Assembly (NCBI GenBank): GCA_035536095.1
Contig: DATLOT010000026.1
Location: forward strand, 8,244-72,243
Direction of reading: 5' to 3'
Length of the DNA: 64,000 bases
Origin: Gammaproteobacteria bacterium
GTDB taxonomy: Bacteria; Pseudomonadota; Gammaproteobacteria; DSM-16500
The position numbers were made by a program, and so were the translations under genes. Under the pieces are notes generated by a model, which saw only the letters and a list, made by a program, of their open reading frames with translations, was not told the origin of the DNA and ran no database searches. Below, piece after piece: positions 6,584-40,714 of the stretch. How positions within the stretch are numbered: position 1 is the stretch's first letter; the number at the start of each line of letters is the position of its first letter.

Positions 6584-6977
6584 GCGTCCTGTTATAGTTA
6601 AACTTCTTATCAAGCGCCAGAATTGTATAGTATGTGGTAAAAGCAAGCAATAGGTCTGTCGATATTTCGTTGTTCTACGACGCTAAATGCGTAAATCCCC
6701 TTAAAATTGTTCTTTTTTTAGTCTATCTACGCTTATCCTGGTTACAGTCTTTTTATGATACCTGTTAGCCTGATAACGATGCACTGCGCTACAATGAGGG
6801 CTACATCGAGAAAAACAGAGCAAGATAGCGCGCTTTTACCCCTAAAATTACCTCAAAAAACCTTTTTTATAAAAAAAAATTAAAAAAACCCCCTATTTTT
6901 AATAAAAAACACTCGCAAAATTCTACCGAAGTGATATGTTAGTAATGTCCCTTTAAAATTTAGTAAGGAATGAAGAT

Positions 6978-33398: not shown

Positions 33399-33645
33399 TC
33401 ATTCCTCTTGAAAAACACTACTGATATTTGCATGCCTATAGTCGGCACTAGAACCCCCCGCATGGTAAATTATAAAAACCTAAATTATTCAAAGACTTAA
33501 AATATGCCATCAGAATGAGCATCGACAACTATCGCTTATTTGTACAATTTTTCAACTGAATTTTAATTTCATGACTAACGCTATTTCCCGACTTCATATA
33601 GGAAATGCTGTATGACGGCCAAGAGAAATTGAGTAACTTATGACC

Positions 33646-33899
33646 GAGCAACGGCGAGCAACGGAGTCAGGCTTGCATAATCAACAACGGGGTCAGGCTT
33701 GCATAATTGTACATTCAATCAACGGGGTCAGGCTTGCATAATTGTACATTTACACTAGCAACGGCAACGGGGTCAGGCTTGCATAATTGTACATTTACAC
33801 TTATTGCAGTAAACGCTTGATAGTATTAAATCTGAAAATACAATTATACAAGCCTGACCCCGTCTCATGACCCCGTCTCACAAGCCTGACCCCGTCTCA
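33646..33899. repeat. MITE/REPIN-like element (family 2) with nested tandem end copies
   Basis: Core 33765-33866 has 25-bp TIRs ACGGGGTCAGGCTTG(C/T)ATAATTGTA; three progressively longer left-end copies precede it and two right-end copies follow. Confidence 0.88.
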
Positions 33900-33970
33900 A
33901 AAAATAGCACCTCCTTTATTGATACTTATAGTCCGTGGTTTTATAAGTATTTGGCGCATATCCTACATTA

Positions 33971-34168
33971 ATGTGCAAAAAACATCCAGCACTTATTAAG
34001 TTGGGCAAAAGAATAAGAGAACTCCGAAAAGAAAAGGGGTTTTCTCAAGAAGACTTTGCCTATGAGGTTGGTTTGGATAGGACTTATATGGGTAGCGTGG
34101 AGAGGGGCGAGCGTAATATTGCAGCTATAAACTTAATTCGTATCGCCAAAACGCTTAAGGTCGAGTAA
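33971..34168 (+). CDS. XRE-family HTH regulator, C-terminally truncated by a 10-bp duplication
   Basis: 'LGKRIRELRKEKGFSQEDFA..GLDRTYMGSVERGERN'; TAAGGTCGAG duplicated at 34156-34175. Confidence 0.85.
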   Translation: MCKKHPALIKLGKRIRELRKEKGFSQEDFAYEVGLDRTYMGSVERGERNIAAINLIRIAKTLKVE

Positions 34169-34275
34169 GGTCGAGGTTGGTGCTCTCTTTCCTTCAATTA
34201 GAGGACTTGATTAGCGCAACTGAGCAGGCAAGTTCACAGTAATTAAAAAAATGTTAGCATCTGTCTGCTCAAAAA

Positions 34276-35871
34276 CTACCCACTTTTGTCGGCAGGTTTA
34301 TATATATGTGCAGCAATTCCCATGCAGTAGATTTCTAGCAACTCATCTCTGCTTTTGTTGTTAAGCTCGTTTATATCGTAATGTGTGCATAGTCGCTTAA
34401 TAAGTTCTTCTTTAGCTAATTTATTGAATCCCTTCATAGCAAAATCAAATGCATCTAATGGGCTTTTTAATCCTCGCGGCACTTCTTGATATTCGCCAAA
34501 AAAAGTATCAGGTGATTTTTCATACGCGCTGATCTCATCATCGGATAATGGAAGATTTACAATAAAACACTTTCCGCTATGGTCTGAGCATATGCCTGTG
34601 GCAGTTTTATTCTTTATGTTAACTACGGCATTTTTTAGCGTAACAATAAAGTTTTTTCCTTCTTGATCGGATAGTTCGTATTTCTCACCATATAGCAATC
34701 GATTGTGCTTAAGTTCAGTCAGTGTTCCGTCAAATGTATCGGGTATCACGGTATGTGCTTCTATTGATTCCCATAATTTATGAATTGGCGCATGTTTTTT
34801 TCTGTCCGCTATAAGTTGAGCTAAAGTTCTTTTTTTGAAACCATAATCATCCATATTAAAACCGTCACTAAAATACAATGGATTCTGAGATGGACCATCT
34901 AGATTGTAATGATATGGGTGGTTAGTTAAAAACACATATGCACTTTTATCCAAGTTAGTCTTTGTGCTCACATTAGAATGTTCAAGTTTTCTAAGTTGTT
35001 TAGCTAGAATCTCCCCACTAAATTTGGCGGCTTCAATAAATGGCAGATTGATATCAACAAATATCACACGCTCATGTTTAGCTTCCTTAGCCAAGGCTTT
35101 ATTAATTGGGCCGCCGATATCAAGCTTTAAATTAGGAGAGCCATCATGGGAAAAACCATCGTTTAACCTATGCCTGTATTTAGCCTCAACTGAAAAACTT
35201 TGGCCAGTTTCAGTGTGAATTGCGATAAATTCACAGTGGGTGCTTTTTTTATCTGATTCATTTTCAAAATTTATTACATAACCAGCTTTTATGAAGATTG
35301 CTGCCACAAATGTTTCATAGTATGCACTAGCAAATTGCTCTTTATTCTTGAGTCGTTTGATTAATAGTTCTAACAGTTCGGCGTTGTGAGAGATTAAATA
35401 TAAATTATACGAAAGCCACATAAAAACAGAAACAGCACCTGTATATGGCGCAGATACTTTTCCTTCAACTTTTTCCAGGGTGGCCCTATATGCCACAAGA
35501 GAATCGTATGCTCTGATAAGCGGATGTTTGAACTCATCTGTATCGCTTCTCTGTTCATCATGCCATTTCTGTCCAAAAAGAGAGAGAAGGTGTGAATATA
35601 AGAAATCGTGGAAAGTCTCCCATTTTCCTGTGTACATTCGATTGCCGACAATTACCACCCGGTGATTTTCAACAGCAGCTGAGATGATTGGCTTGCCCCA
35701 TCCTTGTTGTTTTTTTCTTCGTATTTCTTCTGCTTGTTTACGCTTAATTATTTTTTGAACATTTTTATCTAAAATAATTTTATTCAGATTGCCATGGCAG
35801 CGCTTAAATTTAATGCCGCTGCCACATGGGCAACGCTCATTTCTACCTATTTTTATTCCTTGATATCTCAA
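34276..35871 (-). CDS. SEC-C motif protein with putative PD-(D/E)xK-like nuclease domain
   Basis: 'GRNERCPCGSGIKFKRCHG' SEC-C motif; 'CEFIAIHTETGQSFSVEAK' nuclease-like motif. Confidence 0.7.
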   Translation of the reverse strand: MRYQGIKIGRNERCPCGSGIKFKRCHGNLNKIILDKNVQKIIKRKQAEEIRRKKQQGWGKPIISAAVENHRVVIVGNRMYTGKWETFHDFLYSHLLSLFGQKWHDEQRSDTDEFKHPLIRAYDSLVAYRATLEKVEGKVSAPYTGAVSVFMWLSYNLYLISHNAELLELLIKRLKNKEQFASAYYETFVAAIFIKAGYVINFENESDKKSTHCEFIAIHTETGQSFSVEAKYRHRLNDGFSHDGSPNLKLDIGGPINKALAKEAKHERVIFVDINLPFIEAAKFSGEILAKQLRKLEHSNVSTKTNLDKSAYVFLTNHPYHYNLDGPSQNPLYFSDGFNMDDYGFKKRTLAQLIADRKKHAPIHKLWESIEAHTVIPDTFDGTLTELKHNRLLYGEKYELSDQEGKNFIVTLKNAVVNIKNKTATGICSDHSGKCFIVNLPLSDDEISAYEKSPDTFFGEYQEVPRGLKSPLDAFDFAMKGFNKLAKEELIKRLCTHYDINELNNKSRDELLEIYCMGIAAHIYKPADKSG

Positions 35872-36118
35872 ATTGCGATCTCCCGCAAAATTAAACTGAT
35901 AAGCTTAAAAAGATTAATCGTGTCTTTGCTATACGCCGGAACCGACATTAAGAATGCAGATAAAACTTGATGCTACGATCCATTTTTTTATTGTTATTTT
36001 GCACTAAAGATGGTCGACGATTTTATCGATTGCTTCTACGCAATTTGCTCTATACTCTTCTTTGACCTGCACACGATGCCCATTAACTGATTGCTTTCCT
36101 GCTGCTAGTTTTGAAAAA

Positions 36119-36249
36119 CAACGGGGTCAGGCTTGCATAATTGTACATTTACACTTATTGCAGTAAACGCTTGATAGTATTAAATCTGAAAATACAATTA
36201 TACAAGCCTGACCCCGTCTCAAGCCTGACCCCGTCTTTGACCCCGTCTC
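36119..36249. repeat. MITE/REPIN-like family 2 copy
   Basis: 36119-36220 is identical to 33765-33866; followed by two truncated right-end copies. Confidence 0.9.
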
Positions 36250-36421
36250 CATGCTGCAACCCGGTTGCATGTAATAGTTTACATTTTTGACTAGTGAAAT
36301 ATTCACGTATTAGATATGTCTTGCCAACGCGTCTTCGTCCATAAACAACCAAGAACTCAGCTTCTTGAGAATTATAAATTTTATCAAGGAGCTTTAACTC
36401 TTTTACTCTGCCAATAATCAT
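36250..36421 (-). pseudogene. N-terminal fragment of an archaeal-type (ATPase_2-like) ATPase, interrupted by the family 2 repeat
   Basis: 'MIIGRVKELKLL..LVVYGRRRVGKTYLI' Walker A, then reads into the repeat. Confidence 0.8.
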
Positions 36422-40480: not shown

Positions 40481-40598
40481 GAGAATTGGGGTCAGGCTTG
40501 AGAATTGGGGTCAGGCTTGCATAATTGCACAGTTACACTTATTGCATTAAGTGCCTGATAGCATTGGATGTGGAATACAATTATGCAAGCCTGACCCC
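40481..40598. repeat. Diverged family 2 MITE/REPIN copy with 19-bp tandem left end
   Basis: GAGAATTGGGGTCAGGCTT x2, then GCATAATTG...TACAATTATGCAAGCCTGACCCC; interior similar to the 33765 core. Confidence 0.85.
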
Positions 40599-40714
40599 AT
40601 TTACTCAGCTTTTTGAGAATGATAAATCTTATCAAGAAAAAATAACATATGTCTATTCAACGCAAATACGGAATCAATTTCTCTCACGCACCTACGGTGC
40701 TTGACATAGTGGGT

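What the first reader, a model, noticed from the sequence alone, without database searches (positions are those of the whole stretch)
33646..33899. Telescoping nested ends of a MITE/REPIN-like element
Seen: left-end copies of increasing length (about 26, 31 and 37 nt, then the full 102-bp element), all starting CAACGG(G/A)GTCAGGCTTGCATAAT. They are followed by tandem truncated right ends (TGACCCCGTCTCA units). The same stutter occurs independently at 36221-36249 and 40481-40518. No transposase lies nearby. Inference: this is a footprint of repeated nick/strand-transfer or template-switch cycles at the element ends, such as a RAYT/HUH enzyme acting in trans, and records the amplification mechanism.
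Basis: partly seen in the sequence, partly recalled or inferred. Interest (0 to 1): 0.66.

Follow-up and report, generated by a model that had tools for sequence, protein, structure and literature searches.

The report
Stuttered ends of a tyrosine-transposase mini-element
The tract is a real 100-bp hairpin mobile element whose tips are repeated in tandem as nested partial copies; the element belongs to a known but barely studied family moved by an HUH tyrosine transposase, and the tip stutter recurs across that family and may mark where the enzyme cuts.

Summary
Window 33646-33899 holds one ~103-bp hairpin element (33765-33867). Three nested left-end partial copies and two tiny ones precede it, and two right-end partial copies follow it. 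The copies at 36119-36249 and 40481-40602 stutter too. In this genome 10 of 13 loci do.

The element is the non-autonomous form of a "TIRtron" (Di Nocera 2013). That is a ~1.1-kb unit with GGGGWSAS-type inverted repeats around one gene for a TIRYT, a Y1/HUH transposase with a DnaA_C domain. Intact copies with the same repeat sit in congeners and in metagenomes. None is in this assembly.

The stutter is family-wide:
- 70 perfect tandem duplications span the tip in 268 distinct tips.
- The outer boundary lies 4-8 nt outside GGGG.
- The inner boundary peaks at +1/+2, +7 and +13.
- Junction microhomology is 0.64 nt, the chance level.
- No duplication lies wholly inside an element.

Partial copies carry the variants of their neighbour, so they arose locally. 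Two other metagenome assemblies reproduce the arrays of contig C49 exactly.

My best mechanism is inferred, not shown: the transposase nicks at the tip, short strand-displacement synthesis follows, and the ends are rejoined. Hairpin-driven replication error is the main rival. The family is known; I found no description of the stutter.

The parts
33645..33664 (+). Micro-stutter CGAGCAACGG x2. The unit is flank plus the first 2 nt of the repeat tip; it includes the micro-copy CAACGG at 33649-33654.
   Evidence: TRF period 10, 2.0 copies, 100%; sequence
33659..33681 (+). Left-end partial copy P1: CAAC plus the first 19 nt of the inverted repeat (variant GGAG). The filler CAA follows.
   Evidence: (D1)
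33685..33715 (+). Left-end partial copy P2: CAAC plus the first 27 nt. The filler CAAT follows.
33720..33756 (+). Left-end partial copy P3: CAAC plus the first 33 nt. It is followed by AG and the micro-copy CAACGG (33759-33764).
33765..33867 (.). Complete non-autonomous element (copy A): CAAC-GGGGTCAGGCTTGCATAATTGTAC...GTATAATTATACAAGCCTGACCCC-GTCTCA. It folds as one long hairpin.
   Evidence: Inverted repeat of 37 nt, 84% (I1). DNA fold -24.7 kcal/mol, z = -7.6. 100% identical to copy B over 102 nt.
33868..33880 (-). Right-end partial copy: 7-nt tip GGGGTCA plus 6 nt of flank (TGACCCCGTCTCA).
   Evidence: TRF period 13 x2.0, 100%
33881..33899 (-). Right-end partial copy: 13-nt tip plus 6 nt of flank (CAAGCCTGACCCCGTCTCA).
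   Evidence: (D2)
36119..36219 (.). Complete element, copy B. It is identical to copy A and abuts a truncated ATPase gene.
36220..36249 (-). Two right-end partial copies of copy B: 13-nt tip + GTCT (36220-36236), and 7-nt tip + GTCTC (36238-36249). This array differs from that of the identical copy A.
   Evidence: TRF 36203-36236 period 17 x2 and 36226-36248 period 12
40481..40499 (+). Left-end partial copy of copy C: GAGAATT plus the first 12-13 nt of the repeat.
   Evidence: TRF period 19 x2.1, 100%
40500..40602 (.). Complete element, copy C, 86% identical to copy A. It lies just downstream of the photolyase gene.

Best explanation
SHOWN. The tract is one ~103-bp hairpin element plus local tandem partial duplications of its two tips.

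The element is the miniature, non-autonomous derivative of a TIRtron. A TIRtron is a ~1.1-kb unit made of an inverted repeat starting GGGGTCAG(GCTTGCAYAATTG), one gene for a 310-350-aa TIRYT, and the inverse repeat. A TIRYT is a Y1/HUH tyrosine transposase with a C-terminal DnaA_C helix-turn-helix domain.

The enzyme is encoded in congeners but not in this assembly. The copies here are therefore orphans, or depend on an unassembled copy.

INFERRED. The stutter is a by-product of the transposase acting at the tip, in four steps:
1. The enzyme nicks one strand 4-8 nt outside GGGG and holds the 5' end as a phosphotyrosine.
2. A host polymerase extends the free 3'-OH into the element by strand displacement. 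The extension is short, with frequent stops at +1/+2, +7 (after the family-wide heptamer GGGGTCA) and +13.
3. The new 3' end is rejoined to the held 5' end.
4. After replication this leaves a tandem copy of 'few flank nt + first N nt of the tip', with no need for microhomology.

Repeated cycles give the nested series. Either strand can be nicked, so both ends can stutter.

My confidence in the identity is about 0.9, that the stutter is real and family-wide about 0.9, and in this mechanism about 0.4. The single figure given for this explanation (0.5) is a compromise between these.
For: IDENTITY
- GGGGTCAG fits the TIRtron motif GGGGWSAS (PMC3733652).
- The same repeat flanks Y1 genes in G044, G047, G089, G092, G095 and G100 and in 11 of 76 metagenome loci.
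- G044:C2 is a deletion derivative that keeps 17 codons of the gene.
- The protein matches Y1_Tnp at 60 bits and Bac_DnaA_C at 33 bits. This is subclass 2.1.2 of PMC6006769.

STUTTER IS GENERAL
- 10 of 13 loci in this genome stutter.
- GGGGTCA-N3-10-GGGGTCA gives 46 hits in 16 of 86 family genomes, against 1 control hit.
- The same pattern hits 130 of 401 genomes across the class.
- Autonomous copies stutter too.

ANATOMY
- 70 of 110 perfect tandem duplications within -70..+60 of 268 distinct tips span the tip.
- The outer boundary is at -4 to -8 in 63 of the 70.
- The inner boundary reaches +7 in 25 of the 50 with period >=10, and +13 in 7.
- Mean junction microhomology is 0.64 nt, about the chance level.
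- No duplication lies wholly inside an element.

LOCAL ORIGIN
- Partial copies carry the locus-specific variants of their neighbouring full copy.
- Two 100%-identical copies in the window carry different arrays.

LINK TO Y1 ENZYMES
- The classical REP family of this genome's own RAYT also shows tip stutter, at a lower rate.
- G009 has 11 strong hairpin copies with no stutter. This argues against a purely structural cause.
Against: - No TIRYT gene or fragment is in this 96%-complete assembly. Yet this genome has one of the highest stutter rates.
- The outer boundary is not one fixed position; it ranges from 4 to 8 nt and rarely further.
- Some junctions carry 1-7 nt of filler.
- Nobody has mapped a TIRYT cleavage site, so the nick position is inferred only from the footprints.
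- The arrays are identical in three assemblies, so no ongoing turnover was seen.
- Part of the sample (L223-L242) was fetched with a pattern that favours the +7 class. The +7 peak does hold in the metagenome subset, which was chosen only by a full 21-mer repeat.
Confidence: 0.5

Rival explanations
1. Host replication error at a hairpin. The element extrudes as a stable hairpin on single-stranded template. The polymerase stalls at or in the stem and restarts out of register, or hairpin nucleases and gap repair act there. Tandem duplications anchored at the stem base result, with no transposase involved.
For: - The hairpin is very stable: -24.7 kcal/mol, z = -7.6.
- The outer boundary lies near the stem base.
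- Several long partials end near the hairpin apex, at N = 36-39.
- This genome stutters heavily yet has no TIRYT.
Against: - Junction microhomology is at chance level, 0.64 nt.
- The inner boundary peaks right after the heptamer GGGGTCA in subfamilies whose arms differ completely.
- No duplications lie wholly inside the stems.
- G009 has 11 near-perfect hairpin copies and none stutter.
- Palindromes are classically known to provoke deletions rather than direct duplications (my own knowledge, not tested here).
Confidence: 0.27
2. The repeated tips are selected, functional parts of the ends. They would act as extra transposase-binding sites, as in transposons with subterminal repeats, or as regulatory or terminator modules, rather than being accidental footprints.
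For: - C48:75312-75454 and C49:6595-6737 are 97% identical over an array that includes two partial copies. Whole arrays therefore seem to move as a unit.
- Tip-only mini palindromes are themselves repeated, for example 10 copies in G007.
Against: - The number, length and order of partials differ at almost every locus, even between 100%-identical elements.
- Many copies and many genomes have none.
- Partials as short as 2-3 nt of the tip are unlikely to bind anything.
Confidence: 0.1
3. Repeated self-targeted insertion. New copies insert at the tip of a resident copy, and later deletions remove most of each newcomer, leaving nested ends.
For: [quoted passage not shown]
- Partial P1 carries GGAG. 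So does the solo left end at C49:5105, which stops at the same +19 position, and so does the full copy at C49:8311.
Against: - Nearly all partials share the private variants of the adjacent full copy.
- Each case would need a deletion ending exactly at the next copy's outer boundary.
- Micro-copies of 5-7 nt cannot be insertions.
Confidence: 0.06
4. Assembly artefact of a short-read metagenome assembly at a repeat.
For: The genome is a 64-contig draft.
Against: - The units are shorter than a read, and each junction needs its own k-mers.
- The arrays on C49 are identical in two other metagenome records.
- The same architecture is seen in many independent assemblies, including contigs of hundreds of kb such as G012:C3.
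Confidence: 0.03

Closest known systems
TIRtrons and their TIR repeats, mobilised by TIRYT (Di Nocera, De Gregorio & Rocco 2013, PMC3733652); subclass 2.1.2 of the Y1 HUH superfamily (Quentin et al. 2018, PMC6006769)
   Same: - The inverted repeat begins GGGGWSAS.
- It flanks a single Y1/HUH gene that is longer than a RAYT and carries a DnaA_C-type HTH.
- The repeats also occur without the gene, as 'dimers or clusters'.
- No target duplication is seen.
   Different: The papers do not describe truncated, nested tip copies or their preferred boundaries (term searches of both texts). No biochemistry exists for this class. This genome holds only orphan miniature copies.
REPIN/RAYT systems and BIME or REPIN tandem clusters (Bertels & Rainey 2011, PMC3116915)
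   Same: - Hairpin doublets are moved in trans by a Y1 enzyme.
- Tandem clusters that include flanking sequence are known. Their origin is called 'a second mechanism' and is left open.
- This genome's own REP family shows the same tip stutter.
   Different: - Each arm here is not itself a palindrome and has no GTAG tag.
- The enzyme scores below the RAYT model cut-off, 72 against 80 bits, and is multi-copy in some genomes.
- The repeated units here are truncated tips of 5-50 nt, not whole REPINs.
IS200/IS605 (IS608, ISDra2) and their miniature PATEs
   Same: They use a Y1/HUH transposase with single-strand cut-and-rejoin chemistry and a 5'-phosphotyrosine. They make no target duplication. Cleavage occurs next to short conserved motifs.
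   Different: Those elements have no terminal inverted repeats; each end has its own subterminal hairpin. I know of no reported end stutter for them. The protein here has an added DnaA_C domain.
Rolling-circle HUH systems (pC194-type plasmids, IS91, Helitrons)
   Same: A nick by an HUH enzyme primes displacement synthesis. Rearrangements then have one endpoint at the nick, and one-ended or multi-ended copies are known for IS91 and Helitrons (my own knowledge).
   Different: Those enzymes are Rep/Y2-type or carry helicase fusions. Their products are long read-throughs, not 5-50-nt tandem tip copies.

Membership tests
TIRtron / TIRYT-associated TIR repeat | Terminal inverted repeat beginning with GGGGWSAS | tested here: met
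   All copies begin GGGGTCAG (one variant GGAGTCAG). The motif is defined in PMC3733652.
TIRtron / TIRYT-associated TIR repeat | The same repeat flanks, in inverted orientation, a Y1/HUH transposase gene | tested here: met
   Met in relatives. Examples are L194, L196, L216, G044:C25 and L294, where the repeat lies 75-170 nt upstream of the gene and overlaps its 3' end. Not met in the window's own genome, which has no homologue.
TIRtron / TIRYT-associated TIR repeat | Transposase has the HUH motif and catalytic Tyr, plus a C-terminal HTH (DnaA_C) extension | tested here: met
   The proteins contain NHVH and FQGRY. PF01797 scores 58-61 bits and PF08299 32-33 bits.
TIRtron / TIRYT-associated TIR repeat | Mobilisation of the miniature copies by the enzyme in trans | not testable with these tools
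   Indirect evidence only: identical copies at different sites and a deletion derivative.
REPIN / RAYT | Each arm is a short imperfect palindrome (REP) with a GTAG-type tag | tested here: not met
   There is no GTAG. A single arm has no self-complementarity beyond CAATTG, and only the whole element folds.
REPIN / RAYT | Cognate enzyme is a RAYT proper (single copy, NCBIfam REP_Tyr_transpos) | tested here: not met
   NF047646 scores 72.2 bits, below its cut-off of 80. There are 4-5 copies in G079 and G095.
IS200/IS605 miniature elements (PATEs) | No terminal inverted repeats; a distinct subterminal hairpin at each end | tested here: not met
   The terminal inverted repeat is 25-37 nt. NF033573 transpos_IS200 scores only 19.8 bits against a cut-off of 55.
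Tn3-family miniature elements (TIMEs) | ~38-bp repeat starting GGGG, with a 5-bp target duplication and a Tn3-type DDE transposase | tested here: not met
   It starts with GGGG, but no 5-bp duplication flanks any copy. The gene between the repeats is a Y1 enzyme, not a DDE enzyme.

The most novel reading that the evidence does not exclude
The tip stutter is the direct footprint of Y1-transposase nicking followed by short displacement synthesis and rejoining. Under this reading it does two things. It maps the still unknown cleavage geometry of the TIRYT class: a cut 4-8 nt outside GGGG, with a barrier after the conserved heptamer. It also identifies the unexplained 'second mechanism' that seeds tandem REP, REPIN and BIME clusters in bacteria generally.
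Probability: 0.3. Interest if true: 0.7.

Novelty: new variant of a known kind. Interest (0 to 1): 0.55.

Why it matters
TIRYT elements are widespread. The exact 21-nt repeat occurs in contigs of 36-67% GC, and the stutter pattern hits 130 of 401 gammaproteobacterial genomes sampled. Yet only two papers in the searched library mention them, and no biochemistry exists.

A reproducible footprint with sharp boundaries and no microhomology gives a concrete, testable prediction of where and how the enzyme cuts. It also offers a candidate origin for the tandem REP and REPIN clusters, whose formation has been left open since 2011.

For annotation, it explains a class of odd short tandem repeats next to GGGGTCA motifs.

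If the stutter turns out to be host-made, it would instead be a clean natural example of palindrome-anchored tandem duplication.

Tried and rejected
1. Tn3-family miniature element. The repeat starts GGGG and is ~38 bp, but there is no 5-bp target duplication and the associated gene is Y1. Rejected.
2. This genome's own RAYT (C20) or IS200-type gene (C62) as the cognate enzyme. The RAYT is flanked by a different REP family (CCGAGCCGCGACCG...), and no GGGGTCAGGCTTG hit lies at the C62 gene (C62:19662-20003). Rejected.
3. Scan of genome contigs with the 14-mer. The hits were almost all chance. Only L023, L065 and L076 were useful.
4. Search for the orthologous locus in metagenomes by its left flank: nothing found.
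6. Model with cuts at +7 on both ends and resealing. It predicts GGGGTCATGACCCC empty sites, and none were found. Only 9+9, 12+12 and 13+13 tip dimers exist.
7. Empty-site comparison through the transposase fragment on C49. There is no second copy in the genome to compare with.
8. Known RNA family. Only sub-threshold generic miRNA-hairpin hits were found.
9. Correlation of stutter with TIRYT presence per genome. It is positive but uninformative: 8 of 16 stuttering genomes have the gene against 23 of 86 overall. G000 and G088 stutter without the gene.
10. The Coxiella QMITE paper appeared in a literature search. I did not compare sequences with it.

Full report
**What is there.** Window 33646-33899 reads as follows:
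- a 10-nt unit CGAGCAACGG, twice
- three left-end partial copies that all begin CAAC-GG(G/A)GTCAGGCTTGCATAAT and stop after 19, 27 and 33 nt of the repeat (33659-81, 33685-715, 33720-56)
- short fillers between them (CAA, CAAT, AG)
- a micro-copy CAACGG
- the complete element, 33765-33867
- two right-end partial copies, TGACCCCGTCTCA and CAAGCCTGACCCCGTCTCA

The repeat finder and TRF report the same structure. The 13-mer GGGGTCAGGCTTG (up to 2 mismatches) occurs 13 times in the window against 0.57 expected.

Copy B (36119-36219) is 100% identical to copy A over 102 nt. It carries a different array, with right-end partials of 13 and 7 tip nucleotides. Copy C (40500-40602, 86% identical) has one left partial.

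The element folds as a single long DNA hairpin, -24.7 kcal/mol, z = -7.6. No Rfam family reaches threshold.

**Genome-wide.** The window is C26:8244-72243 of a 1.80-Mb, 64-contig, 42.5% GC genome. I found 13 loci of the element. They lie on C26 (3), C48 (1), C49 (6, on an 8.7-kb contig), C63 (2) and C10 (one variant). Ten of them show stutter.

Partial copies share the private sequence variants of the adjacent full copy. Examples are cgtaattgcacattcc on C48, cacagttgcacattcc at C49:5302 and 6201, and cataattgtatccgc at C49:3424. They are therefore local duplications, not independent insertions.

Of 72 perfect tandem duplications (period 10-60) in the whole genome, 12 sit at these tips, which cover 0.17% of the sequence.

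**What the element is.** A relative in the same genus (G044) has the same repeat, GGGGTCAGGCTTGCACAATTGCAC, about 150 nt upstream of an ORF starting MARKPRVHYSGAYYHVMLRGNGG. It also has a 255-bp deletion derivative that keeps the first 17 codons between two repeats.

Searching that peptide in the 86 genomes of the family gave full-length genes of 310-350 aa in 23 genomes. Many are bracketed by GGGGTCAGGC(T/C)TG in inverted orientation, about 1.1 kb apart.

The proteins match Y1_Tnp (58-61 bits) and Bac_DnaA_C (32-33 bits). They contain NHVH and FQGRY. They score 72 bits on NCBIfam REP_Tyr_transpos, below its cut-off of 80.

This is the TIRtron/TIRYT kind described by Di Nocera et al. 2013. Its repeat consensus is GGGGWSAS, and its repeats are 'organized in dimers or clusters' (PMC3733652). 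It corresponds to subclass 2.1.2 of Quentin et al. 2018 (PMC6006769). Only these two papers in the searchable library mention TIRYT.

The window's genome has no TIRYT gene or fragment. Its two Y1 genes are an IS200-type gene and a classical RAYT with its own, different REPs.

**The stutter is a family property.**
- The 13-mer occurs in 23 of 86 family genomes, with zero control hits.
- The mini-stutter GGGGTCA-N3-10-GGGGTCA occurs 46 times in 16 of 86 genomes, against 1 control hit.
- The same pattern occurs in 130 of 401 genomes sampled across the class. My hand tally of that table is roughly 390 hits against 75 for the reversed control.
- Other repeat subfamilies with quite different arms after GGGGTCA stutter in the same way. 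Their arms begin AGTCTC.., AGTATTCAC.., AGTGCCACC.. and AATCTTGTC...
- Autonomous copies stutter as well: L196, L200, L294, L297 and L286.
- A scan of metagenome contigs with the full 21-mer repeat gave 76 loci of 36-67% GC, 11 of them with a TIRYT gene next door. One spectacular array (L264) has six partials of 7, 7, 7, 13, 7 and 7 tip nucleotides.
- Two metagenome records, Ga0310810_10015435 and Ga0310811_10001931, are 100% identical to contig C49 over 8.7 and 5.3 kb. The longer record spans all of C49's arrays; the shorter ends at C49:6540 and so misses the array at 6599.

**Anatomy of the events.** I collected every perfect tandem duplication (period 5-60) within -70..+60 of 268 distinct innermost tips. 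There are 110 events:
- 70 span the tip.
- 40 lie in the flank, and 11 of those abut the tip.
- None lies wholly inside an element.

For the 70 spanning events:
- The outer boundary is 4-8 nt outside GGGG in 63 of them, with the mode at -4.
- Among the 50 with period >=10, the inner boundary can be placed at +7 (right after GGGGTCA) in 25 and at +13 in 7.
- A further 18 are micro-events ending at +1/+2.
- The extra match at the junction averages 0.64 nt. Chance predicts about 0.67.

Within one locus the outer boundary stays constant while the inner one varies. On C48 it is TAAC + 21, 7, 15 and 36 nt. At C49:6201 it is AAAC + 2, 3, 2 and 19 nt.

Part of this sample was fetched with a pattern that favours +7. 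However, the +7 peak also holds in the metagenome subset, which was chosen only by a full-length repeat: 11 of 14 events with period >=10.

**Mechanism (inference).** The signature has these features:
- a roughly fixed outer start
- variable but clustered inner stops
- no microhomology
- local templating
- occurrence at either end
- iteration

This is what one expects if an HUH enzyme nicks a strand at the element terminus and keeps the 5' end as a phosphotyrosine. That end is then protected from nick translation. A polymerase extends the 3'-OH by displacement for a few to a few dozen nucleotides, and the enzyme rejoins the new 3' end to the held 5' end.

Stops after the universal heptamer could reflect protein bound to the adjacent arm.

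Flank-only duplications that end 3-4 nt from GGGG (L252, L307) fit the mirror event on the other strand.

Two facts tie the phenomenon to Y1 systems rather than to hairpins as such. First, the classical REPs of this genome's own RAYT show the same tip stutter at about 17-fold lower frequency per tip (C19:2335, C60:8220, C3:11945, C61:12205). Second, G009 has 11 near-perfect hairpin copies and none stutter.

Against the model:
- This genome has no TIRYT.
- The outer boundary is a 5-nt window, not a single bond.
- Fillers occur at some junctions.
- No cleavage site has ever been mapped for this class.

A model with cuts at +7 on both ends and resealing predicts GGGGTCATGACCCC empty sites. None were found. 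Only 9+9, 12+12 and 13+13 tip dimers exist, in 39 loci with zero control hits.

**Rivals.**
- Hairpin-driven replication error is the serious one, at about 0.27. It explains the anchoring at the stem base and the stutter without an enzyme. It does not explain the lack of microhomology or the heptamer boundary across unrelated arms.
- Selected multi-site ends, about 0.1. Arrays do seem to move as units (C48 and C49:6599 are 97% identical over 145 bp). But the arrays are too variable for this.
- Nested insertion plus deletion, about 0.06.
- Assembly artefact, about 0.03.

**Comparison and novelty.** Tandem REP and REPIN clusters that include flanking DNA are known, and their origin was left open (PMC3116915; PMC3733652). 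Truncated, nested tip copies with defined boundaries are not described in the papers I could search. That is absence of evidence within a limited library.

The element is a new member of a known family. The stutter is a new structural variant or feature, with mechanistic promise.

**Limits.**
- The organism's name was not available to me. It is a gammaproteobacterium in a family of 86 species-level genomes of 1.1-3.6 Mb.

Noticed in passing
window 34156-34175: A perfect 10-bp tandem duplication TAAGGTCGAG x2 lies at the 3' end of the HTH_3/XRE ORF (33971-34168). It puts a TAA in frame. Without it the reading frame continues.
   Followed up: no
window 33765-36220: Two 100%-identical 102-bp copies of the element, in direct orientation, bracket the XRE gene and the 531-aa SEC-C-motif protein. 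This could be a composite unit or a substrate for deletion. ORF 36155-36421(-) is only the N-terminal 88 aa of an ATPase_2/AAA protein and runs into copy B, so that gene is truncated by the element.
   Followed up: partly
G000 contigs C18:96, C18:55512, C3:96, C21:238, C33:26278, C36:31556, C43:185, C6:36239, C6:57528, C62:10477: A 23-nt GTAG-tagged unit GTAGCAATCCGAAGGCCGGGGTA is repeated head-to-tail 2-3.7 times at ten loci, several at contig ends. It is a third repeat family in this genome.
   Followed up: no
G000 C20:32000-34200 (L192): A classical RAYT (226-aa frame) lies beside tRNA genes. It is embedded in arrays of its own REP, ACCGAGCCGCGACCGTNAGGGAGCG, whose core occurs 392 times in the genome. 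These REPs also show truncated tip stutter.
   Followed up: partly
G000 C49 (8.7 kb; = L259, L303): This small contig carries six copies of the element. Two of them flank a fragment of an integrase-core (ISNCY-like, judged by eye) transposase gene. The contig ends in an AbiEii-like gene shared with the end of C48. It is 100% identical in two other metagenome records.
   Followed up: partly
G007 (10 loci), G014, G056, G060, G064; G050:C1:449655: Tip-to-tip mini palindromes are themselves dispersed repeats. Forms include GGGGTCAGG|CCTGACCCC (18 bp) and 12+12 and 13+13 versions. They occur at 39 loci in 20 of 86 genomes, with zero control hits. They may be minimal mobile units or footprints.
   Followed up: no
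L023 (Candidatus Eisenbacteria MAG), L244-L310 (high-GC metagenome contigs): The same 14-21-nt repeat tip occurs in very distant, high-GC organisms. There the 4 nt before GGGG are conserved as T(A/G)CC instead of NAAC. This points to horizontal spread and to lineage-specific terminal tetranucleotides.
   Followed up: no
L006 (G009:C3:82846-82875 region): One copy has an internal deletion whose breakpoint lies right after GGGGTCA (GGGGTCA|ATGTGCAATTGTGCAAGCCTGACCCC). This is the same +7 position as the duplication hot spot.
   Followed up: no
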